Source of the DNA: a virus
Lineage: Duplodnaviria > Heunggongvirae > Uroviricota > Caudoviricetes
DNA length: 21,765 nt
Strand: one strand, 5' to 3'
IMG/VR virus record: IMGVR_UViG_2690316064_000002
The notes under the pieces are model-generated. The model ran no database searches. It was not told the origin of the DNA and saw only the letters and a program-made list of their open reading frames with translations. This document shows, in pieces, positions 1-21,507 of the stretch. Position 1 is the stretch's first letter, and the number at the start of each line of letters is the position of its first letter. The translations under genes and the position numbers were made by a program.

Positions 1-310
1 ACTGTACTGCGGCGCGCCAGCTGTTTAATGCGCGGATCCGGAGCATCGTATGAATCCGGCAGCGGAAGCCCTTCACCGTAAGCCATGGCATTGGACTGCC
101 CGGCCAGTACGATGACGTAGTACCACTCCGGCTCAGTTGCACCACTGACGACCACATCACCTTCTGCTGCAATCGCCTGCATCAGGGTATAAGGGGTTAT
201 GGCCACCGGACTACCAAACGGCTGCCAGCCCTCTTTCAGTTTATGTGTCAGCTTTTCCGCAAGGTCTGACGGCGACGCCGCCCTGACAACATCATAATGT
301 TTAATCGACA
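1..310 (-). CDS. NanS-p-like prophage sialate O-acetylesterase, N-terminal part only (gene runs off the left edge of the window)
   Basis: Minus-strand ATG at 310 preceded by GGGAGA; reading frame open to position 1. N-terminus MSIKHYDVVRAASPSDLAEKLTHKLKEGWQPFG... resembles the DUF1737 N-terminal domain of prophage NanS-p esterases, followed by a GQSNA esterase-type motif. Not in the ORF track because it has no stop in the window. Confidence 0.55.
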
Positions 311-397
311 TCGAATTTCTCCCGTGTACAGGAACAGAGTTAAAAAGCCGGAACCGGAATCAAATTACAGGATGGCCATCTGCCAGTGGCAGGTCAT

Positions 398-424
398 AAA
401 AAAAAGGCCGCGCCATGCGCAGCC
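398..424 (-). terminator. Predicted intrinsic terminator (8-bp GC-rich stem with one G-U, 3-nt loop, U8 tract on the minus strand)
   Basis: Plus-strand AAAAAAAA-GGCCGCGCC-ATG-CGCAGCC; on the minus strand the hairpin is followed by eight U. Lies between the AT-rich island and the nanS-p-like gene. Confidence 0.4.
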
Positions 425-854
425 AGAACTCACAAGGAAAATGATAGAAGGAAATAACATTAGTGATGTACGCATGGCGCCTCCCGCTAAGTTCTGCAAT
501 GATCAAACAGAACTCGCTACGTGCCCTTAAAACTCGATCATTTAGCCCCTCCAAGGAGGATTCACCATGCGGTTGATTTTTTAATAAACAGTAAACAAAA
601 AAGTCAAGGATTATTCATTCTGTTTTTTCATCATCGGCCACAGCAATACCACAATGCCGCAGACCAGAGCGCCATCAGTCAGTACCAACATTATCCTGCT
701 GGTGAAATCCATCATCACCATCACTAAAAGCAGGATCACAACAGCAAGCAGACACAGTTTATAAAACAATGTTCAGAAAACGCATTCAGCATGCCTAAGG
801 TTCTATTCCTACGAATAGCCAACTTGCAACTTAAAATATTATTTATGCAGCCAA

Positions 855-1571
855 TTAAATTCTGGTCCTTACAATATCAACCTGAAGATTCTTATCTTGT
901 GCTGATTGATAAATGACAAACCTTTTACTACCTGCATTGAAAGAAGTAGACAAAACCAGACAATTATCATAACGAGCAAGAACATAATACCAACCATCAT
1001 TATAATTAATCATTTCATATTCTTTCTTAAACTGTGGTTTGTAATATCCTGTCAGAAATGAAAAAAGCCAGAAATATGCCACAAAAGCAATCATCACAAT
1101 CTCAAAAAAATGTTTTTTTATAAATGGCTTATCATAGAAGCATGATACCGATAAAAATCGCCCATAAGATCTTATCGAAATTGTAACCGCCAGCGCAATC
1201 GCTGCTGACAGTAGCAAAAGAGGTACCTGAATCTTCTGTCTCAATATAGAAAACTCAATAATTGCCGGCACAAACAATAATTCCACAGCAAAATAAAGGC
1301 GAAATACATTTAGCTCTTGCATAGAATGTTTTCTTTTCACTGCGAAAAAGAATACAACACCAATACCCCAACCGATAAGAAATATAGCAATGACGATAAC
1401 TGCAAAAAATAAACTTCTGGCAACATCATCAACACCTGCACCTACAATCCACCATGGGAAGCCGTAGTAAAAAGAAGTACCCCATCCATAGAAATAAGCA
1501 CTCCCCCATCCAAGGCATCCCATGTAGGCAATAAAAAGTGAAGAACTCCTGAGCAGCGCACCATCCTTCAT
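855..1571 (-). CDS. Hypothetical polytopic inner-membrane protein (about 5 TM helices plus a roughly 55-aa C-terminal soluble domain); late-region cargo gene in an AT-rich island
   Basis: Track ORF 855..1613. I prefer the ATG at 1571 (MKDGALL..., preceded by GGGGTGG) because the predicted promoter -10 overlaps the ATG at 1613. Hydrophobic segments include LFIAYMGCLGWGSAYFYGWG, SLFFAVIVIAIFLIGWGIGVVFFFAV and FFEIVMIAFVAYFWLFSFLTGYY. No family recognised. Confidence 0.6.
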   Translation of the reverse strand: MKDGALLRSSSLFIAYMGCLGWGSAYFYGWGTSFYYGFPWWIVGAGVDDVARSLFFAVIVIAIFLIGWGIGVVFFFAVKRKHSMQELNVFRLYFAVELLFVPAIIEFSILRQKIQVPLLLLSAAIALAVTISIRSYGRFLSVSCFYDKPFIKKHFFEIVMIAFVAYFWLFSFLTGYYKPQFKKEYEMINYNDGWYYVLARYDNCLVLSTSFNAGSKRFVIYQSAQDKNLQVDIVRTRI

Positions 1572-1608
1572 AACCACCCCAATACAAGATGATAACATTG
1601 GCTTACAA

Positions 1609-1638
1609 CTCATAACAAAAGCAATTCAATGCCGTCAA
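1609..1638 (-). promoter_or_regulatory. Candidate sigma70 promoter for the membrane-protein cargo gene (-35 TTGACG, 18-bp spacer, extended -10 TGtTATGAG)
   Basis: Minus-strand reading: TTGACG (1638-1633), 18 nt, TG then TATGAG (1614-1609). The -10 overlaps the first in-frame ATG (1613), which argues for the downstream start at 1571. Confidence 0.3.
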
Positions 1639-1779
1639 GAGGTTACAGGCTAAAAAAACTCTATTACATTGCAGTCAGCATGTTTACTACACAAATACAA
1701 TTCAGAGCATAAAAACTACTCGGCGGCAGGTTATTGAGACTCATCAATGACATGTAAAAAACGCCCATTATTGATGTCA

Positions 1780-1850
1780 AGTTTCCCCAAAGTTATTCAA
1801 AAAGTCAATATTATGCCGTTAATATGTTGCCATCCGTGGCAATCATGGCG
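1780..1850 (-). promoter_or_regulatory. pR'-like late promoter / qut region immediately downstream of Q
   Basis: Minus-strand TTGACTTTTTGAATAACTTTGGGGAAACTTGAC closely resembles lambda pR' (TTGACTTATTGAATAAAATTGGGTAAATTTGAC); -35 TTGACT at 1808-1803. The -10 reads GAAACT rather than lambda TAAATT. Confidence 0.5.
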
Positions 1851-2474
1851 CTAACGTGTGATCGCATTCAAAATGTTGTCTGCGATTGACTCTTCCTTGT
1901 GGCATTGCACAACCAGAGCGTCATACAGCGGCTTAACAGTGCGTGACCAGGTGGGTTGGGTAAGGTTTGGGATTAGCATCGTCACAGCGCGATATGCGGC
2001 GCTTGCTGGCATTCTTGAATAACCGACGCCTTTACATCTTCCGCACTCTTTCTCAGCAACTATCCCCCACTGCTCTGTTTTGGCTATATCAACCGCACGG
2101 CCTGTACCGTGGCAATCTCTGCATCTTGCGCCCGGCGTAGCAGCACTACGGCAATAATCCGCATAAGCGAATGTTGCGAGCACTTGCAGTACCTTTGCCT
2201 TAGTATTTCCTTCGAGCTTTGCCACACCACGGTATTTCCCCGATACCTTGTGTGCAAATTGCATCAGATAGTTGATAGCCTTTTGTTTGTCGTTCTGGCT
2301 GAGTTCATGCTTACCGCAGAATGCAGCCATTCCGAATCCGGCTTGTGATTGCGCCATCCCCATAGCAGCCATCACATCAGTACCGGAAAGAGAGTCAGAA
2401 GCCGTAGCCCGTGGTGAGTCGCTCATCATCGGGCTTTTTGGCGAATGAAATTTAGCTACGCTTTCGAGTCTCAT
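1851..2474 (-). CDS. Q: Late-gene antiterminator Q (lambda Q type)
   Basis: 207-aa translation matches my recollection of lambda Q over its full length (MRLESVAKFHSPKSPMMSDSPRATASD...ADNILNAITR); sits directly upstream of the pR'-like sequence. Confidence 0.93.
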   Translation of the reverse strand: MRLESVAKFHSPKSPMMSDSPRATASDSLSGTDVMAAMGMAQSQAGFGMAAFCGKHELSQNDKQKAINYLMQFAHKVSGKYRGVAKLEGNTKAKVLQVLATFAYADYCRSAATPGARCRDCHGTGRAVDIAKTEQWGIVAEKECGRCKGVGYSRMPASAAYRAVTMLIPNLTQPTWSRTVKPLYDALVVQCHKEESIADNILNAITR

Positions 2475-4163: not shown

Positions 4164-5177
4164 TTACTTGTCTGAATCATCCAGTTCGTCTGTTTTCACA
4201 TCCTCAAACCTTGGATGCAGGCGATTCATTTTTGCAATAAAATCTGAATAGTCGTTAGATAGCTTCATAATCGTAACGGTTGATGACAGATGCTCTCTTA
4301 ATTTTTGATATCCAATATTTGGCGTCAGCCCCTGAAACAACTTTGTACCTTTTGAGGCCTTTACGTTCTGCTTTTTAAGCTCCTCAAGGATGTTTGGTGC
4401 CAATCTCTTGTAGACGATATCATTTGTCAAAACGCCAAAATACTGAGGCCGGAAGCGGGGATTTTCCGGCGGGTATTCTAAGCCCCTTAACCTGAAAAGC
4501 TCTTCATAATAATCAGCAGGAAATGTTGTAATATAAGGTTGAATTTCCTTTGCGACAAAGGCCTCGAGTATTTTGGCGAGCGCATCTTTTTCTCTATCTC
4601 GCTGGTACCCCGTCGCTTCATCAACAAGCGCTATTATTCCGACTTTAGCTAATGAGCGCACCAGAATTTCAGCTTTCTTGGCTGTCTCTAACTGGTTTGG
4701 CCTGGTGATAGCGCCTGCCTCTCTTGCCTTTAAATAAACATCGCAGACAAGAGGTATTATGGATGCGTCATAACCTTCCTGGACGGAGCCAGTAATCGTC
4801 TTGTATTTGACCTTATTGATCACATCCATAACATCTTGATTTATATATTTTTTAAGGTTTGCAGCATCCATAAAAGCGGGCATATTGATCACCCCCTCTT
4901 CTTGAGGTGCTCTACCCCCTCTTTGTGGTCGGCCAAATGCTTTAAAAACAGAAGCTTGTGATATGATACGCCGTCCATTTTCGAGAACCGCGACATCTAA
5001 TTCCGCATCACCGATCTTTAACTTTCCCTCATTCGCAGATACGGGCAATAAAGCTTTTTCTTTTTTTGCGGCAACAGCCTTTCTTGAGGATTCTTTTCTT
5101 TGCTCTGCTGTCATTTTTGCCGCGCGTGCCTTACCGCCTTTGGCCTTCCCACTAACATCATCATTTTTCATGAGCAT
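4164..5177 (-). CDS. P63C-domain-like phage protein (basic N-terminal region plus conserved C-terminal domain); start uncertain
   Basis: Track ORF 4164..5231 begins at a TTG; likely start is an internal ATG (MLMKNDDVSG..., 5177). C-terminal region TFPADYYEELFRLRGLEYPPENPRFRPQYFGVLTNDIVYKRL... matches my memory of the P63C domain (assignment from memory). Confidence 0.55.
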   Translation of the reverse strand: MLMKNDDVSGKAKGGKARAAKMTAEQRKESSRKAVAAKKEKALLPVSANEGKLKIGDAELDVAVLENGRRIISQASVFKAFGRPQRGGRAPQEEGVINMPAFMDAANLKKYINQDVMDVINKVKYKTITGSVQEGYDASIIPLVCDVYLKAREAGAITRPNQLETAKKAEILVRSLAKVGIIALVDEATGYQRDREKDALAKILEAFVAKEIQPYITTFPADYYEELFRLRGLEYPPENPRFRPQYFGVLTNDIVYKRLAPNILEELKKQNVKASKGTKLFQGLTPNIGYQKLREHLSSTVTIMKLSNDYSDFIAKMNRLHPRFEDVKTDELDDSDK

Positions 5178-5202
5178 ATCTCGTGTTGTGATTGATAAGT
5201 CA

Positions 5203-5249
5203 ATCATACACATGCACGTTGTAACGTGCAATATTTAAATATGCACGTA
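5203..5249 (-). promoter_or_regulatory. Candidate promoter (-35 TTGCAC, 17 bp, -10 TATGAT) overlapped by an operator-like array of three TGCACGT(T/A) half-sites
   Basis: 18-bp palindrome TGCACGTT-gt-AACGTGCA (5213-5230) plus a third copy TGCACGTA (5242-5249); minus-strand -35 at 5231-5226 and -10 at 5208-5203. Confidence 0.35.
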
Positions 5250-10036: not shown

Positions 10037-10228
10037 GCGCTATGAGATCAGGCATCCTCGTTACTTTGTCATGTGTGACAGCCTGGTATGCACTCTGCGA
10101 GCTTTGATGTGGTTTACCACTTTAATAGTCACCGTATCACTAAACTGATTAGCTTTACTCATACTCTTGTGGATTCGCTATTTCTGATGTCAATGCAAAA
10201 AAATACTAAGGAAACAAAAAGGATACTT

Positions 10229-10495
10229 ATGTCAGATAACACTATTAAAATCATACCTCAGCACATGACCGCCACATCAGTTCTTATTACGCCTGATCGT
10301 GCTGAAACAATCATTACTTTTTACCGCCATGAATTTGAGCATCACATGCAGTCTGATGAGCAAGGAAAGAATAGCTTCCAAGTAAAAGTTGAGTTGACCC
10401 CTAACATGTCAGTCTCAATGAGCCCGGATCAAGCTGTTGCATTAGTAAAATCATTACAGGTAGCTCTCAGGGATAATGGGCTATGGAAAGACTGA
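10229..10495 (+). CDS. Hypothetical 88-aa soluble protein (rex-position cassette); alternative upstream start at 10088
   Basis: ATG at 10229 with AAGGA 7 nt upstream; the track's longer 135-aa version (from 10088) lacks a recognisable SD. No family recognised. Confidence 0.5.
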   Translation: MSDNTIKIIPQHMTATSVLITPDRAETIITFYRHEFEHHMQSDEQGKNSFQVKVELTPNMSVSMSPDQAVALVKSLQVALRDNGLWKD

Positions 10496-11133
10496 AGCCA
10501 GTTTCTTCAGTTCAACCTACCTCAGGAATAACATCATCAGTTCTTCCAAGTATTATAGTTAGTGCAACCCTAGCAGCGACAACCGTTTCTCCTTATGGGG
10601 ATCCATCTCAGTACCAAAGTATTGGTATTGATGCTAAGGTATCAAATAGAGTTTCATACGCCATGGACGAAACGGGTTTGCGCCCAAGTAAGGAAGATGT
10701 AGCGATGAAGAGTGATACCCTGGAGGTAAGCGTGAGCGGAATGTCCAGAGAAGAACTTGACGCAAAGCTTTCACAAAACAAATCAGAGGTAGAGTCTATT
10801 GCTGCGGAAATGCGTCGCGAATCAGCTGACTTTAAAACCTATTATACTCAGCAATTTTCTTCTATTGAGAGAGGTATTGCTGAAATTAAAGGTGAAATCG
10901 GCGGTTTGAAAACGGGACTTACAACGACTCAGTGGGCGATGGCCGTTGGCTTGACTTTAGTTACTGTGATTCTGTCTGGCGTGATGTTAGCCTCAAGTTG
11001 GATTATCTCCGGCAATGACAAGTCACCATCAGTAACCAGCCCGGCTCCAATTATAATACAGGTACCGACACAGCAACCATTAACGAGCGCTCCAACTAAC
11101 CAATCGTCATCACAACAAGCTCCTAAGCAATAA
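10483..11133 (+). CDS. Hypothetical membrane-anchored protein: N-terminal soluble/coiled-coil region, one TM helix, C-terminal Pro/Ser/Thr/Gln-rich tail (rex-position cassette)
   Basis: Start overlaps the upstream stop (ATGGAAAGACTGA), indicating translational coupling. Helical heptad-like stretch SREELDAKLSQNKSEVESIAAEMRRESADFK; TM TTTQWAMAVGLTLVTVILSGVMLASSWIISG; tail SPAPIIIQVPTQQPLTSAPTNQSSSQQAPKQ. Confidence 0.6.
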   Translation: MERLKPVSSVQPTSGITSSVLPSIIVSATLAATTVSPYGDPSQYQSIGIDAKVSNRVSYAMDETGLRPSKEDVAMKSDTLEVSVSGMSREELDAKLSQNKSEVESIAAEMRRESADFKTYYTQQFSSIERGIAEIKGEIGGLKTGLTTTQWAMAVGLTLVTVILSGVMLASSWIISGNDKSPSVTSPAPIIIQVPTQQPLTSAPTNQSSSQQAPKQ

Positions 11134-16162: not shown

Positions 16163-16566
16163 GCGAAATTAACTCTCAGGCACTGCGTGAAGCGGCAGAG
16201 AAAGCCGGTGAAGATAAGTGGCAGGCTAAAAAAATAAATGGTGATTTTTTCGTTATTCGTCACGGTAGTTATACAAGACAGCATGGCTACACATCGTATC
16301 AACCCATTGCGGAGATTGATTGTAAGCCAGTCCGGGATTTTGTTGCCAAGGCTAATCCGGCTACCGTGCTGGAATTACTGGATGAACTGGAAGCAGCAAA
16401 AAAGCGCATTGCAGAACTGGAAGCGCGGGAAATACTGCTCCCGGAACGTAGCAGCATGCTTCATCGAACAGATTTTCACGATGATTACCAAACGGTAATG
16501 GCATACAAAGTTTCTGAAGTCATCGATGCAATCCGCGCTACTGGCATTCGCATCAAAGGAGAGTGA
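16159..16566 (+). CDS. Ea22-like protein (shorter variant), GTG start
   Basis: N-terminus MSEINSQALREAAE and C-terminus GIRIKGE as in lambda Ea22 by recollection; central coiled-coil segment ELLDELEAAKKRIAELEARE. Confidence 0.55.
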   Translation: MSEINSQALREAAEKAGEDKWQAKKINGDFFVIRHGSYTRQHGYTSYQPIAEIDCKPVRDFVAKANPATVLELLDELEAAKKRIAELEAREILLPERSSMLHRTDFHDDYQTVMAYKVSEVIDAIRATGIRIKGE

Positions 16567-16567
16567 G

Positions 16568-17323
16568 ATGATTCACTACCACGGTGGGCCTATTACTCCT
16601 GATACGTGCGCAATGAGAGCATGGAAAGGGCGACATGCGTTTATCAGTTTTGCGCATTCAGGCCAGATCAATCTCGCGGCTGAATACTGTCAGTCGTTCG
16701 CGCTGGACAACGGTGCATTCACCGCCTGGAAAGCAGCTGGCAAAAACAAAATCGACTGGAGCGATTACTACGAGTTTGTTGCTCGCTGGAAGAATCACCC
16801 AGGATTCGATTTTGCCATTATCCCGGATATTATTGATGGCGGAGAGGAGGAAAATGATGCGCTTCTGAATGAGTGGCCTCACGGAAAACTAGCTGGCGTT
16901 CCAGTGTGGCACATGAATGAAAGTGACGCGCGATTTATTCATTTGTGCAATGAGTTTCCGCGAGTGGCTATCGGTAGTTGTGGCGACTATGACGTAAAGC
17001 GCCCAACTCTTGCGGTAGCCAGAATGAAAGACCTGATTCGTCACATTGTTGATGGGCATGGTCAGCCGGTTACGAAACTACATGGATTGCGCATGTTAAA
17101 TCCGCTGATATTCACAAAATTACCCTTAGCCAGCGCAGATAGTACGAACGTCGCTCGAAACATCGGTATTGATAAAGCCTGGTCTGGGGCTTATGCACCT
17201 GCAAGTAAAGAGACACGCGCAGCATTAATGGTAGAACGGATTGAGGCACACAATAGCCCTGGTTCTCTTGCGTATTGTGAACAACGCGACCGCTTTGAAA
17301 TGCAATTGCAACTAGCAGTTTAA
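16568..17323 (+). CDS. Hypothetical 251-aa protein of the early-left accessory region
   Basis: ATG at 16568 with AAGGAG upstream (track starts earlier at 16526); MIHYHGGPITPDTCAMRAWKGRHAFISFAHSGQ...; no family recognised. Confidence 0.55.
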   Translation: MIHYHGGPITPDTCAMRAWKGRHAFISFAHSGQINLAAEYCQSFALDNGAFTAWKAAGKNKIDWSDYYEFVARWKNHPGFDFAIIPDIIDGGEEENDALLNEWPHGKLAGVPVWHMNESDARFIHLCNEFPRVAIGSCGDYDVKRPTLAVARMKDLIRHIVDGHGQPVTKLHGLRMLNPLIFTKLPLASADSTNVARNIGIDKAWSGAYAPASKETRAALMVERIEAHNSPGSLAYCEQRDRFEMQLQLAV

Positions 17324-18822: not shown

Positions 18823-19041
18823 ATGTACTTGACACTTCAGGAGTGGAACGCTCGCCAGCGACGCCCAAGAAGCCTTGAAACAGTTCGTCGATGGGTGCGC
18901 GAATGCAGGATATTCCCTCCTCCGGTTAAGGATGGAAGAGAATATCTGTTCCACGAATCAGCGGTAAAGGTTGACTTAAATCGACCAGTAACAGGTAGCC
19001 TTTTGAAGAGGATCAGAAATGGGAAGAAGGCGAAGTCATGA
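18823..19041 (+). CDS. xis: Excisionase Xis
   Basis: 72 aa MYLTLQEWNARQRRPRSLETVRRWVRECRIFPPPVKDGREYLFHESAVKV... = lambda Xis; overlaps the int start. Confidence 0.95.
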   Translation: MYLTLQEWNARQRRPRSLETVRRWVRECRIFPPPVKDGREYLFHESAVKVDLNRPVTGSLLKRIRNGKKAKS

Positions 19042-20089
19042 GCGCCGGGATTTACCCCCTAACCTTTATATAAGAAACAATGGATATTACTGCTACAGGG
19101 ACCCAAGGACGGGTAAAGAGTTTGGATTAGGCAGAGACAGGCGAATCGCAATCACTGAAGCTATACAGGCCAACATTGAGTTATTTTCAGGACACAAACA
19201 CAAGCCTCTGACAGCGAGAATCAACAGTGATAATTCCGTTACGTTACATTCATGGCTTGATCGCTACGAAAAAATCCTGGCCAGCAGAGGAATCAAGCAG
19301 AAGACACTCATAAATTACATGAGCAAAATTAAAGCAATAAGGAGGGGTCTGCCTGATGCTCCACTTGAAGACATCACCACAAAAGAAATTGCGGCAATGC
19401 TCAATGGATACATAGACGAGGGCAAGGCGGCGTCAGCCAAGTTAATCAGATCAACACTGAGCGATGCATTCCGAGAGGCAATAGCTGAAGGCCATATAAC
19501 AACAAACCCTGTCGCTGCCACTCGCGCAGCAAAATCAGAGGTAAGGAGATCAAGACTTACGGCTGACGAATACCTGAAAATTTATCAAGCAGCAGAATCA
19601 TCACCATGTTGGCTCAGACTTGCAATGGAACTGGCTGTTGTTACCGGGCAACGAGTTGGTGATTTATGCGAAATGAAGTGGTCTGATATCGTAGATGGAT
19701 ATCTTTATGTCGAGCAAAGCAAAACAGGCGTAAAAATTGCCATCCCAACAACATTGCATGTTGATGCTCTCGGGATATCAATGAAGGAAACACTTGATAA
19801 ATGCAAAGAGATTCTTGGCGGAGAAACCATAATTGCATCTACTCGTCGTGAACCGCTTTCATCCGGCACAGTATCAAGGTATTTTATGCGCGCACGAAAA
19901 GCATCAGGTCTTTCCTTCGAAGGGGATCCGCCTACCTTTCACGAGTTGCGCAGTTTGTCTGCAAGACTCTATGAGAAGCAGATAAGCGATAAGTTTGCTC
20001 AACATCTTCTCGGGCATAAGTCGGACACCATGGCATCACAGTATCGTGATGACAGAGGCAGGGAGTGGGACAAAATTGAAATCAAATAA
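19019..20089 (+). CDS. int: Integrase Int (tyrosine recombinase)
   Basis: 356 aa MGRRRSHERRDLPPNLYIRNNGYYCYRDPRTGKEFGLGRDRRIAITEAIQ... matches lambda Int along its length. Confidence 0.97.
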   Translation: MGRRRSHERRDLPPNLYIRNNGYYCYRDPRTGKEFGLGRDRRIAITEAIQANIELFSGHKHKPLTARINSDNSVTLHSWLDRYEKILASRGIKQKTLINYMSKIKAIRRGLPDAPLEDITTKEIAAMLNGYIDEGKAASAKLIRSTLSDAFREAIAEGHITTNPVAATRAAKSEVRRSRLTADEYLKIYQAAESSPCWLRLAMELAVVTGQRVGDLCEMKWSDIVDGYLYVEQSKTGVKIAIPTTLHVDALGISMKETLDKCKEILGGETIIASTRREPLSSGTVSRYFMRARKASGLSFEGDPPTFHELRSLSARLYEKQISDKFAQHLLGHKSDTMASQYRDDRGREWDKIEIK

Positions 20090-20177
20090 TGATTTTATTT
20101 TGACTGATAGTGACCTGTTCGTTGCAACAAATTGATAAGCAATGCTTTTTTATAATGCCAACTTAGTATAAAAAAGC
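20075..20177. other. attL: attL: lambda P' arm (Int arm-type and IHF sites) plus 15-bp core (TTAGTATAAAAAAGC = reverse complement of GCTTTTTTATACTAA, 20163-20177)
   Basis: The sequence from the int stop to the core is the reverse complement of the lambda attP P' arm as I recall it; beyond the core it switches to host attB flank (AGGCTTCAACGG...). Confidence 0.9.
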
Positions 20178-20223
20178 AGGCTTCAACGGATTCATTTTTC
20201 TATTTCATAGCCCGGAGCAACCT

Positions 20224-21507
20224 GTGAACACATTTTCAGTTTCCCGTCTGGCGCTGGCATTGGCTTTTGGCGTGACGCTGACCGCCTGTAGCTCAACACC
20301 ACCCGATCAACGTCCTTCTGATCAAACCGCGCCTGGTACCTCTTCTCGCCCGATTCTGTCGGCAAAAGAAGCGCAGAATTTCGATGCTCAACACTATTTT
20401 GCATCCCTGACACCAGGTGCTGCAGCGTGGAATCCTTCCCCGATTACCCTGCCTGCGCAACCTGACTTTGTTGTCGGCCCGGCGGGTACTCAAGGTGTAA
20501 CGCATACCACGATTCAGGCGGCGGTAGATGCGGCAATTATCAAGCGTACCAACAAGCGCCAGTATATTGCCGTGATGCCAGGTGAGTATCAGGGAACGGT
20601 ATATGTTCCTGCCGCTCCGGGTGGAATTACTCTGTACGGTACAGGTGAAAAACCGATTGATGTGAAGATTGGGCTTTCCCTTGATGGGGGCATGAGCCCT
20701 GCCGACTGGCGTCACGACGTCAACCCGCGCGGCAAATATATGCCAGGTAAACCAGCGTGGTATATGTACGATAGCTGCCAGAGCAAACGCAGCAACAGTA
20801 TCGGTGTTCTCTGTTCAGCGGTCTTCTGGTCACAAAACAATGGCCTGCAACTGCAAAACCTGACCATCGAAAACACGCTGGGCGATAGCGTAGATGCGGG
20901 TAACCATCCGGCGGTGGCACTGCGTACTGATGGTGACCAGGTACAGATTAACAACGTGAACATTCTCGGTCGTCAGAACACCTTCTTTGTCACCAACAGC
21001 GGTGTGCAGAACCGTCTGGAAACGAATCGTCAGCCGCGTACGCTGGTGACCAACAGCTACATTGAAGGGGATGTGGATATCGTTTCTGGTCGCGGCGCAG
21101 TGGTGTTCGATAACACCGAATTCCGCGTGGTGAACTCACGTACTCAGCAAGAAGCGTATGTGTTTGCACCGGCAACGCTGTCCAACATTTACTACGGTTT
21201 CCTCGCTGTAAACAGCCGTTTCAATGCTTCCGGTGATGGCGTGGCGCAACTGGGCCGCTCGCTGGATGTTGATGCCAATACCAACGGTCAGGTGGTGATC
21301 CGTGATAGCGCCATCAACGAAGGTTTTAACACGGCTAAACCGTGGGCCGATGCGGTGATCTCTAATCGTCCGTTTGCGGGTAATACCGGCAGCGTAGATG
21401 ATAACGACGAAATACAGCGCAATCTGAATGACACTAACTACAACCGCATGTGGGAATACAATAACCGCGGCGTGGGTAGTAAAGTGGTTGCAGAGGCGAA
21501 GAAGTAA
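20224..21507 (+). CDS. ybhC: Host YbhC (pectinesterase-family outer-membrane lipoprotein), GTG start
   Basis: 427 aa with lipoprotein signal (LALALAFGVTLTACSS); matches E. coli YbhC, the gene flanking attB-lambda on the gal side. Confidence 0.93.
   Translation: MNTFSVSRLALALAFGVTLTACSSTPPDQRPSDQTAPGTSSRPILSAKEAQNFDAQHYFASLTPGAAAWNPSPITLPAQPDFVVGPAGTQGVTHTTIQAAVDAAIIKRTNKRQYIAVMPGEYQGTVYVPAAPGGITLYGTGEKPIDVKIGLSLDGGMSPADWRHDVNPRGKYMPGKPAWYMYDSCQSKRSNSIGVLCSAVFWSQNNGLQLQNLTIENTLGDSVDAGNHPAVALRTDGDQVQINNVNILGRQNTFFVTNSGVQNRLETNRQPRTLVTNSYIEGDVDIVSGRGAVVFDNTEFRVVNSRTQQEAYVFAPATLSNIYYGFLAVNSRFNASGDGVAQLGRSLDVDANTNGQVVIRDSAINEGFNTAKPWADAVISNRPFAGNTGSVDDNDEIQRNLNDTNYNRMWEYNNRGVGSKVVAEAKK

What the first reader, a model, noticed from the sequence alone, without database searches (positions are those of the whole stretch)
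611..1850. AT-rich cargo island with its own promoter and a polytopic membrane protein in the Stx-phage toxin slot
Directly downstream of Q and the pR'-like sequence, where Stx phages carry stxAB ahead of nanS-p, this prophage has a visibly AT-rich block (long A/T runs; exact GC not computed). It encodes a 238-aa protein (855-1571, minus) with about five TM helices and a small C-terminal soluble domain. A plausible sigma70 promoter sits upstream (-35 TTGACG, extended -10 at 1609-1638) and a terminator follows at 398-424. I recognise no family. Position and composition indicate a horizontally acquired cargo gene; candidate functions are superinfection exclusion, abortive infection or surface modification.
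Basis: partly seen in the sequence, partly recalled or inferred. Interest (0 to 1): 0.7.

Follow-up and report, generated by a model that had tools for sequence, protein, structure and literature searches.

The report
Orphan membrane-protein cassette behind phage Q
This is a real, AT-rich cargo cassette sitting where Shiga-toxin phages carry their toxin genes; it encodes an inner-membrane protein of a catalogued but functionally unknown family (Pfam "TfpB", Salmonella STM1630) that also sits beside toxin and effector genes in ETEC, Shigella and Salmonella, so the sequence is not new but its function is an open, testable question.

Summary
The observation largely holds. Between lambda-type Q/pR' and nanS-p lies a ~1.4-kb block of 36-37% GC (flanks 50-56%). 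Stx1 phages carry stx1AB at the same position. The "own promoter" is plausible but not above chance.

The protein is identical to one in phage 434 and O157:H7 EDL933 and occurs at >=99% identity in 679 of 5,426 complete E. coli genomes. It belongs to Pfam PF27470 "TfpB" and PHROG 1521, and is 46% identical to Salmonella STM1630. Relatives lie next to eltAB on ETEC plasmids, on Shigella virulence plasmids, beside sseJ, and in Pasteurellaceae and Neisseriaceae chromosomes.

The predicted protein is N-in with five TM helices, a conserved aromatic periplasmic loop and a small periplasmic beta-domain. It has no relative by fold, sequence or defence-system profile.

Best reading: a lysogenic-conversion envelope protein expressed from pR' read-through, with the niche inferred from family distribution. 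Phage exclusion is the main rival. The sequence is already known and the function is not. Interest is moderate.

The parts
1851..2474 (-). Lambda-type late antiterminator Q (207 aa); left anchor of the slot
   Evidence: Pfam Antiterm 1.2e-57, phrog_127; RefSeq 'antitermination protein' in identical loci
1764..1808 (-). pR'/qut-like late promoter region: -35 TTGACT 1808-1803, 17-nt spacer, -10-like GAAACT 1785-1780, predicted start ~1773
   Evidence: 90.5% identity to lambda over window 1900-1764. Hexamers read by analogy with lambda pR' (established knowledge); activity not tested
1711..1733 (-). Decayed tR'-like hairpin at the left edge of the cassette (AACCTGCCGCCGAGTAGTTTTT)
   Evidence: In phage 434 the homologous AACCCGCTGCCGAGTGGGTTTTTTTT folds at -13.3 kcal/mol, z -3.85, and is annotated as a terminator. 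Here it folds at -5.1, z +0.74
1589..1638 (-).
   Evidence: not enriched over shuffles. The stretch is conserved with the gene where the upstream junction differs (L013, L012, 434). Function inferred only
855..1571 (-). 238-aa inner-membrane protein of the PF27470 'TfpB' / PHROG 1521 / STM1630 family; SD GGGGTGG at 1580-1574. Predicted N-in, 5 TM, periplasmic aromatic loop (res. 37-49) and periplasmic beta-domain (res. 187-232)
   Evidence: RefSeq calls a 247-aa version starting at 1598, but the conserved start is 1571
611..769 (-). 52-aa hydrophobic DUF3927 / TciB-like protein (TTG start)
   Evidence: Pfam PF13064 1.4e-14; phrog_1470 1.2e-17. Linked to the large gene only in the E. coli phage version
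398..424 (-). Intrinsic terminator closing the cassette (8-bp GC-rich stem 424-406 plus U8)
   Evidence: conserved in 434 and 2B8 with a stem-preserving difference
1..312 (-). 5' part of nanS-p (DUF1737/SASA esterase), right anchor of the slot; runs off the window
   Evidence: 98.7% identical to nanS-p of Stx1a phages from window 304 leftward; annotated as SASA esterase in 434, 2B8 and EDL933

Best explanation
Window ~313-1733 is a portable moron cassette in the cargo slot between the late-gene switch (Q, pR'/qut) and nanS-p/lysis genes of a lambda-like prophage. SHOWN: It carries a 238-aa gene of the PF27470 'TfpB'/STM1630 family, a 52-aa DUF3927 gene, and a strong terminator. The large gene is under strong purifying selection and is AT-rich in every host examined. 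The same family occurs on Shigella virulence plasmids, next to eltAB on ETEC plasmids, next to sseJ in Salmonella, and as a solitary gene in Pasteurellaceae and Neisseriaceae. INFERRED (expression): The cassette is the first unit of the late operon. In this prophage the tR'-like hairpin at its left edge has decayed. Transcripts from the pR'-like promoter therefore probably enter the cassette without Q and stop at the 424-406 terminator, giving low-level expression in the lysogen and high expression after induction. An internal sigma70-like promoter and H-NS silencing, as reported for STM1630, may add to this. INFERRED (mechanism): The protein inserts N-in with five TM helices. A conserved Tyr/Trp/Gly-rich loop and a small beta-barrel domain face the periplasm. 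No polar residue is invariant across the wider family and there is no fold relative. It is therefore more likely a binding or blocking protein acting on another envelope component than an enzyme or transporter. MOST LIKELY ROLE: a lysogenic-conversion envelope factor that benefits the lysogen in an animal host. The host-niche part is inferred from family distribution and STM1630 data. It is not a core phage function.
For: Cassette nature: identical block behind a Q82-type Q in phage 434 and behind lambda-type Q here and in 2B8/EDL933. Alleles follow a third Q type in Yersinia. stx1AB occupies the same slot in YYZ-2008. GC 0.36 against 0.47-0.56. Real gene: dN/dS 0.05-0.20. Family. Topology: mean K+R per loop is 2.1, 2.5 and 4.1 on one side against 0.1 and 0.7 on the other, over 28 sequences; model pLDDT 81. 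Not enzyme-like: only G175 is invariant, and A15, A25, Y26, G37 and Y195 nearly so; no fold or profile relatives. Read-through: hairpin decay and no other terminator between pR' and 424. Host-niche lean: 156 plasmids, of which 106 are Shigella pINV. Divergent neighbour of eltAB in all five ETEC loci examined. STM1630 is silenced by H-NS, induced in SPI-2 medium and in macrophages, co-regulated with virulence regulators, and its mutants are reported attenuated in calves and chicks (PMC6785131 supplement; PMC2639726). The close non-enteric members are all from animal-associated Pasteurellaceae and Neisseriaceae. Co-location with lpxR and pmrD cargo.
Against: There is no direct functional evidence for this allele. 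Promoter activity, read-through, topology and H-NS binding are all predictions. STM1630 phenotypes are weak or inconsistent: no growth defect, deletion increased intramacrophage replication in strain 4/74, no effect in D23580, and the motility phenotype of one screen was not among those confirmed later. Proximity to toxin and effector genes may only reflect co-accumulation of AT-rich horizontally acquired DNA; no statistics were done. The most distant subfamily occurs in Enterobacterales of wider ecology, such as Mangrovibacter and Klebsiella electrica. A periplasm-facing inner-membrane protein in a prophage fits superinfection exclusion equally well.
Confidence: 0.45

Rival explanations
1. 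Phage defence: the membrane protein, alone or with the DUF3927 protein, blocks DNA entry of superinfecting phages at the inner membrane or aborts infection, as P22 SieA, T4 Imm, HK97 gp15 or lambda RexB do.
For: Prophage moron with a terminator of its own. Inner-membrane protein with conserved periplasm-facing elements. Solitary, AT-rich and patchily distributed across unrelated chromosomal sites, plasmids and phages, as defence genes often are. Probably expressed in the lysogen.
Against: No PADLOC match. No sequence or fold similarity to any exclusion protein. Only 3 of 50,697 phage records carry it. Fixed, long-conserved positions on Shigella pINV, next to eltAB, and at the STM1630 site across S. 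enterica subspecies and C. rodentium. Virulence-regulon expression of STM1630.
Confidence: 0.25
2. Late lytic accessory: as the first gene of the late operon it serves the phage itself, for example by tuning holin/lysis timing or envelope disassembly, or by acting with NanS-p at release.
For: It is directly downstream of Q/pR' in three Q contexts and upstream of nanS-p and the holin. It would be strongly transcribed after Q antitermination.
Against: A strong terminator separates it from nanS-p and the lysis genes. Lambda and Stx phages lack it. Most family diversity lies outside phages, in plasmids and chromosomes without lysis genes. It matches no holin, antiholin or spanin family.
Confidence: 0.1
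3. Toxin- or effector-linked accessory: the protein assists or protects against a neighbouring secreted toxin, and the phage copy is a remnant of such a pairing.
For: Neighbour of eltAB in 5/5 ETEC loci examined, with STb nearby. STb in Klebsiella. sseJ in Salmonella. cdtABC-like genes in G. parasuis and RTX export genes in L016, assigned from N-terminal sequences only. Stx slot here.
Against: The neighbouring toxins are mechanistically unrelated. This window and most Pasteurellaceae/Neisseria loci have no toxin next to the gene. The orientation to eltAB is divergent rather than operonic.
Confidence: 0.08
4. Type IV pilus accessory factor, as the family name TfpB would suggest (from memory, tfpB is an ORF in the Moraxella pilin-inversion region).
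For: Pfam name 'TfpB'. One plasmid record annotates its copy 'TfpB protein'.
Against: No pilin, pilus-assembly or piv-like gene was seen next to any family member in about 30 loci. No Moraxella member was retrieved. The origin of the name could not be verified.
Confidence: 0.04

Closest known systems
Phage 434 late-region cassette (OL657226: CPT_434_68 'putative membrane protein' + CPT_434_69 'TciB'); also phage 2B8 gp58/gp59 and E. coli O157:H7 EDL933 WP_001302581.1 / DUF3927
   Same: Protein 100% (434, EDL933) or 97.9% (2B8) identical. Same gene order, same terminator, same nanS-p downstream.
   Different: 434 uses a Q82-type antiterminator and keeps an intact tR'-like terminator at the cassette's left edge, whereas here it is decayed. 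No function is assigned in any record.
Salmonella Typhimurium STM1630 (SL1344_1560)
   Same: Same family and length (238 aa), 46% identity, same architecture, AT-rich.
   Different: Chromosomal islet between steB and sseJ, not a prophage; own mapped promoter; no DUF3927 partner. It has some experimental data: H-NS bound, induced in macrophages, weak infection phenotypes. Its function is still unknown.
Pfam PF27470 'TfpB' / PHROG 1521
   Same: All homologues, including a 100%-identical protein, carry the precomputed PF27470 label. PHROG 1521 E 2e-154.
   Different: Both are families of unknown function. The model is absent from the local Pfam copy, so the match could not be recomputed here.
eltAB-adjacent ORF of ETEC Ent plasmids and the pINV ORF of Shigella
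   Same: 57-59% identical family members on virulence plasmids.
   Different: Plasmid-borne, flanked by IS elements, no Q/pR' context, no DUF3927 partner.
Classical lambdoid morons and conversion genes (stxAB, lambda bor/lom, HK97 gp15, PA-2 lc porin)
   Same: Works like them in layout: atypical composition, inserted between genes that are adjacent in relatives, own terminator, sits in the same Q-to-lysis cargo region as stx.
   Different: No sequence or fold relation to any of them. Independent promoter not demonstrated.
Inner-membrane superinfection-exclusion proteins (P22 SieA, T4 Imm, lambda RexB)
   Same: Small prophage-encoded polytopic inner-membrane protein, probably expressed in the lysogen.
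   Different: No homology detected. The comparison rests on general resemblance only.

Membership tests
Pfam PF27470 'TfpB' | Significant match to the family HMM over the full length | tested here: met
   Precomputed PF27470.1 label on P0001 (100% identical) and on nearly all homologues; name shown. The local Pfam copy lacks the model, so no score was recomputed.
PHROG 1521 (unknown function) | HMM match | tested here: met
   E 2.1e-154, residues 31-252 of the 252-aa ORF against profile positions 1-222 of 222.
STM1630 family | Full-length homology to S. Typhimurium STM1630 with the same architecture | tested here: met
   46% identity over 238/238 aa to P0074. P0074 was identified as STM1630 by gene length, the 425-bp distance to sseJ, and the deletion primer encoding NSSMLLAYLGGLGWG.
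Moron (independent cargo transcription unit in a phage genome) | Inserted between genes that are adjacent or differently filled in related phages | tested here: met
   Absent from lambda (homology ends at 1764). The slot holds stx1AB in YYZ-2008. The cassette sits behind a different Q type in 434.
Moron | Base composition unlike the surrounding phage genes | tested here: met
   GC 0.363 and GC3 0.305, against 0.506 and 0.486 in Q.
Moron | Own terminator | tested here: met
   424-406, dG -16.1 kcal/mol, z -2.7.
Moron | Own promoter active in the lysogen | tested here: inconclusive
   Two sigma70-like candidates at 1638-1589, conserved with the gene but not enriched over shuffles. Activity cannot be tested with these tools.
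DUF3927 / TciB-like (for ORF 611-769) | HMM match | tested here: met
   PF13064 1.4e-14 (54.2 bits against a cutoff of 25); phrog_1470 1.2e-17.
Known anti-phage defence or exclusion systems | Match to a defence-system protein profile | tested here: not met
   No PADLOC family at E<=1 for either protein. No PHROG with an exclusion annotation for the large ORF.
Known anti-phage defence or exclusion systems | Protection against phage infection | not testable with these tools
   Needs plating assays.
Type IV pilus accessory 'TfpB' (Moraxella pilin-inversion locus; recalled, not verified) | Linkage to pilin genes and a piv-type recombinase | tested here: not met
   None seen in about 30 loci. No Moraxella member retrieved.
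Membrane enzyme or transporter folds | Structural similarity to a solved fold, or invariant catalytic or ion-binding residues | tested here: not met

The most novel reading that the evidence does not exclude
TfpB/STM1630-family proteins are a single, horizontally mobile envelope module. Enteric and mucosal pathogens repeatedly acquire it alongside toxin and effector loci: the Stx slot, eltAB, sseJ, Shigella pINV, and lpxR/pmrD cargo. It acts through its periplasmic aromatic loop and beta-domain on a conserved inner-membrane or periplasmic machine, for example a secretion, uptake or lipid A remodelling component. This changes host interaction or toxin release. It would be a new, fold-level orphan class of conversion factor with a first assignable function.
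Probability: 0.2. Interest if true: 0.65.

Novelty: already known. Interest (0 to 1): 0.4.

Why it matters
The sequence is not new. It is in phage 434 and O157:H7 EDL933, in about one in eight complete E. coli genomes at >=99% identity, and in a curated Pfam family. What stands out is that a strongly conserved, fold-orphan inner-membrane protein occupies the Shiga-toxin slot of non-Stx lambdoid prophages. Its relatives sit beside LT toxin genes, on every Shigella species' virulence plasmid, and beside sseJ, yet no function has been assigned. A function, whether phage exclusion or host adaptation, would annotate thousands of pathogen genomes at once. It would also explain what lambdoid phages carry in this slot when they do not carry stx. 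Phage 434 and 2B8 are tractable systems for testing this.

Tried and rejected
- Remote homology of the 238-aa protein found nothing. I tried Pfam (local copy), NCBIfam, PADLOC and PDB sequence profiles for the whole protein and for the C-terminal domain alone. The first NCBIfam and Pfam calls failed on a wrong coordinate for nanS-p.
- The first structure prediction, from a shallow enteric-only alignment, gave pLDDT 59 and was discarded. The diverse alignment gave pLDDT 81.
- A third gene, a lipoprotein-like ORF (MRTSLMLFPSIIFLVSSGC..., about 475-365) with a strong SD, was rejected. It exists only through a 1-nt insertion in this window; in 434 and 2B8 the same ATG stops after 14 codons.
- DUF3927 as an obligate partner was rejected. 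It is absent beside the Yersinia, Salmonella, Klebsiella, ETEC and Shigella alleles.
- A native low-GC donor lineage was rejected. The gene is 6-15 GC points below its flanks even in Pasteurellaceae and Neisseria.
- The Moraxella pilin-locus lead is unverified. No Moraxella member, pilin gene or paper text was available.
- STM1630 hypermotility was reported in one screen but is not among the phenotypes confirmed by clean deletions, so I treat it as weak.
- Literature searches for TciA/TciB, PF27470, DUF3927 and locus tags gave nothing functional.
Full report
**What is in the sequence**

The left end of the window reads, on the minus strand, as follows:
- A lambda-type Q antiterminator lies at 1851-2474 (Pfam Antiterm 1.2e-57).
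- A stretch follows that is 90.5% identical to lambda through the end of Q and the pR'/qut region (window 1900-1764). It has -35 TTGACT at 1808-1803 and a -10-like GAAACT at 1785-1780 (read).
- Next comes an AT-rich block, then the start of nanS-p at 312.

The rest of the window is an ordinary lambda-like prophage: NinH, RusA, YbcO, a KilAC antirepressor, NinB, P, O, a cI-like repressor, N, Bet, Exo and Int. A pectinesterase-like host gene follows Int at the right end. That places the prophage at att-lambda; the identity of that host gene as ybhC is from memory.

**Checking the observation**

*Composition.* The ORF 855-1571 has GC 0.363 and GC3 0.305. Q has 0.506 and 0.486. The block 560-1715 is 0.367, the nanS-p fragment 0.561, and the rest of the window 0.472.

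*The ORF is a real gene.*
- All homologues begin at the Met at 1571, which is preceded by GGGGTGG. RefSeq's 247-aa call (start at 1598) is therefore probably nine codons too long.
- dN/dS against close and distant alleles is 0.05-0.20.
- Hydropathy and a confident AlphaFold2 model (pLDDT 81, pTM 0.73, from a diverse 28-sequence alignment) give five TM helices and a five-stranded C-terminal beta-domain (residues 187-232).

*Terminator and slot.* The terminator at 424-406 is strong (dG -16.1 kcal/mol, z -2.7). The slot claim is correct. In Stx1 phage YYZ-2008 the order is Q, stx1A, stx1B, a small ORF, nanS-p, holin. Its nanS-p is 98.7% identical to this window from position 304 leftward.

*Two corrections.*
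- The "own promoter" is not established. Promoter-like sites are no more frequent than in shuffles: 3 found against 5.1 +/- 2.2 expected.
- In the promoter's favour, the ~70 nt that hold both candidates travel with the gene where the upstream junction differs (L013, L012, 434).

**It is a catalogued cassette**

- The 1.34-kb block is 99-100% identical in phage 434, where it is annotated "putative membrane protein" and "TciB" and sits behind a Q82-type Q (homology begins at window ~1715).
- It is also in phage 2B8, EPEC E2348/69, O26/O103/O111-type STEC, and O157:H7 EDL933 as WP_001302581.1 "hypothetical protein".
- The ORF is present at >=99% identity in 679 of 5,426 complete E. coli genomes. 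Some family member is present in 1,197 of them.
- By contrast, only 3 of 50,697 phage records carry it: phage 434 once and phage 2B8 twice.
- The protein matches PHROG 1521 (unknown function, E 2e-154).
- Every homologue, including a 100%-identical one, carries the precomputed Pfam label PF27470, named "TfpB". That model is absent from the local Pfam copy.

**The wider family**

An exhaustive profile search of 1.84 billion representatives found only 72 clusters. They fall into four groups:
- Enterobacterales members, 45-100% identical.
- Pasteurellaceae and Neisseriaceae members, 20-35% identical. These are solitary genes in unrelated housekeeping contexts.
- A more distant Enterobacterales subfamily.
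- Many fragments.

All full-length members keep the same length and architecture.

Members sit in several notable contexts:
- **Salmonella.** P0074 (46% identity) is STM1630. This is confirmed by gene length, the 425-bp distance to sseJ, and the published deletion primer. C. rodentium has a copy at the same chromosomal site, next to lpxR.
- **Plasmids.** 156 plasmids carry a member. Of these, 106 are Shigella virulence plasmids; on pWR100 the gene lies between virA and spa40.
- **ETEC.** On Ent plasmids the gene is the divergent neighbour of eltAB in all five loci examined, with STb nearby.
- **Another E. coli allele (68% identity).** It lies in a Q-to-nanS-p slot together with lpxR and pmrD. 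Phage 434 has lpxR just upstream of Q.
- **Yersinia.** Alleles follow a third Q type.

The gene is 6-15 GC points below its flanks in every lineage, including Pasteurellaceae and Neisseria. No donor lineage is apparent.

**What is published**

For STM1630 (PMC6785131 supplement; PMC2639726; 10.1101/450098; PMC3632133):
- Its function is unknown.
- It is bound by H-NS, which explains its apparent "essentiality" in transposon screens.
- It is expressed in SPI-2-inducing medium and inside macrophages, and is co-regulated with virulence regulators.
- It is silenced by a -10 mutation in all ST313 strains tested.
- Deletion does not affect growth. It raised intramacrophage replication in strain 4/74.
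- Signature-tagged mutants were reported as attenuated in calves and chicks.
- One screen reported a hypermotile phenotype. It was not among those confirmed with clean deletions.

I found nothing on the phage allele, on DUF3927, or on the origin of the name TfpB. From memory, tfpB is an ORF in the Moraxella pilin-inversion region. I could not verify this, and no pilin or piv-like gene lies beside any family member examined (and the loci above).

**How it probably works**

*Shown:*
- The layout is cassette-like.
- The gene is under purifying selection.
- The family and its distribution are as described above.

*Inferred, topology.* Positive charges per loop, averaged over 28 sequences, are 2.1, 2.5 and 4.1 on one side and 0.1 and 0.7 on the other. 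This gives an N-in/C-out topology. The strongly conserved Tyr/Trp/Gly-rich loop (YGFPWW followed by DD) and the C-terminal beta-domain would both face the periplasm.

*Inferred, mode of action.*
- Across the wide family only G175 is invariant, and A15, A25, Y26, G37 and Y195 are nearly so.
- The C-terminal domain gives only weak SH3/Tudor-like hits.
- This argues against an enzyme or transporter. It favours a protein that binds or blocks another envelope component.

*Inferred, expression.*
- The cassette is the first unit after pR'.
- In 434 its left edge is a clean tR'-like terminator (dG -13.3, z -3.85). Here the homologous hairpin has decayed (dG -5.1, z +0.74).
- No other terminator precedes 424.
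- Transcripts from pR' would therefore run through both small genes without Q and stop at 424-406. That terminator would then act as the effective tR' of this prophage.
- The expected result is low-level expression in the lysogen and strong expression after induction. H-NS silencing is likely, by analogy with STM1630.

**Verdict on function**

I weight the readings as follows:
- **0.45:** a lysogenic-conversion envelope factor useful in the animal host. This rests on the family's fixed places on virulence plasmids and islets, the animal-associated taxa of the close members, the lpxR/pmrD company, and the STM1630 expression data.
- **0.25:** phage exclusion or abortive infection. The anatomy fits equally well, but there is no PADLOC or fold support.
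- **0.10:** a lytic or lysis accessory.
- **0.08:** a toxin-linked accessory.
- **0.04:** a pilus-linked role.

None of these has been tested experimentally for this allele.

**Novelty and interest**

The sequence, the cassette and the family are already in the databases, so the novelty class is "already known". Its belief that the protein has no family is wrong. Interest is moderate (0.4). An uncharacterised membrane moron behind Q is not surprising. However, this is a fold-orphan, strongly conserved protein shared by the Stx slot, the LT locus, Shigella pINV and the sseJ islet. It is a well-defined open question with tractable model phages (434, 2B8).

Noticed in passing
window 10088-10495 and 10483-11133 (+): Two overlapping ORFs (135 and 216 aa) lie directly after the cI-like repressor, where lambda carries rexAB. 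They have no Pfam match and nothing significant in PADLOC; PHROGs 26809 and 5820 are 'unknown function'. They are candidate immunity-region exclusion genes.
   Followed up: partly
window 4164-5231 (-): A 355-aa P63C-domain protein (Pfam 1e-23; phrog_2384, unknown function) lies in the nin region with locally lowered GC (~0.40-0.43). It is a second cargo-like gene in this prophage.
   Followed up: partly
window 1711-1733 (-): The tR'-like terminator that opens the cassette in phage 434 (dG -13.3, z -3.85) is decayed here and in 2B8 (dG -5.1, z +0.74). The terminator at 424-406 may therefore act as the effective tR' of this prophage.
   Followed up: partly
window 365-475 (-): An ORF with a strong SD and a lipoprotein-like signal (MRTSLMLFPSIIFLVSSGC...) overlaps the terminator. 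It exists only because of a 1-nt insertion relative to 434 and 2B8, where the same ATG stops after 14 codons, so it is probably not a gene.
   Followed up: yes
window 1571-1598 (-): The RefSeq model WP_001302581.1 starts at 1598 (247 aa). All homologues across genera start at the Met at 1571 (238 aa), which has a GGGGTGG Shine-Dalgarno. The database start is probably 9 codons too long.
   Followed up: yes
window 16526-17323 (+): A 265-aa ORF has no Pfam match. It matches only the first half (positions 7-267 of 509) of phrog_887, which is annotated 'queuine tRNA-ribosyltransferase'.
   Followed up: no
window 19019-21507 (+): A lambda-type integrase is followed by a pectinesterase-like host gene. 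This indicates that the prophage sits at the att-lambda site; the identity of the host gene as ybhC is from memory.
   Followed up: partly
L039/L040 4001-8717; L038 2863-4717; L001 810-3861: The family gene keeps company with lpxR (lipid A deacylase) in three different arrangements: convergent in an E. coli prophage slot that also holds pmrD, divergent in the C. rodentium chromosome, and across Q in phage 434.
   Followed up: partly
L031 3987-6714; L034-L037 1987-4714: On ETEC enterotoxin plasmids the 59%-identical allele is the divergent neighbour (866 bp) of eltAB in all five loci examined. An IS element and the STb gene lie downstream.
   Followed up: partly
L018 6955-9017; L016 6888-12656: In Glaesserella parasuis the homologue lies next to three genes that look like cdtCBA. 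In a Mesocricetibacter MAG it lies next to RTX-toxin export genes. Both assignments come from N-terminal sequences only and were not checked against profiles.
   Followed up: no
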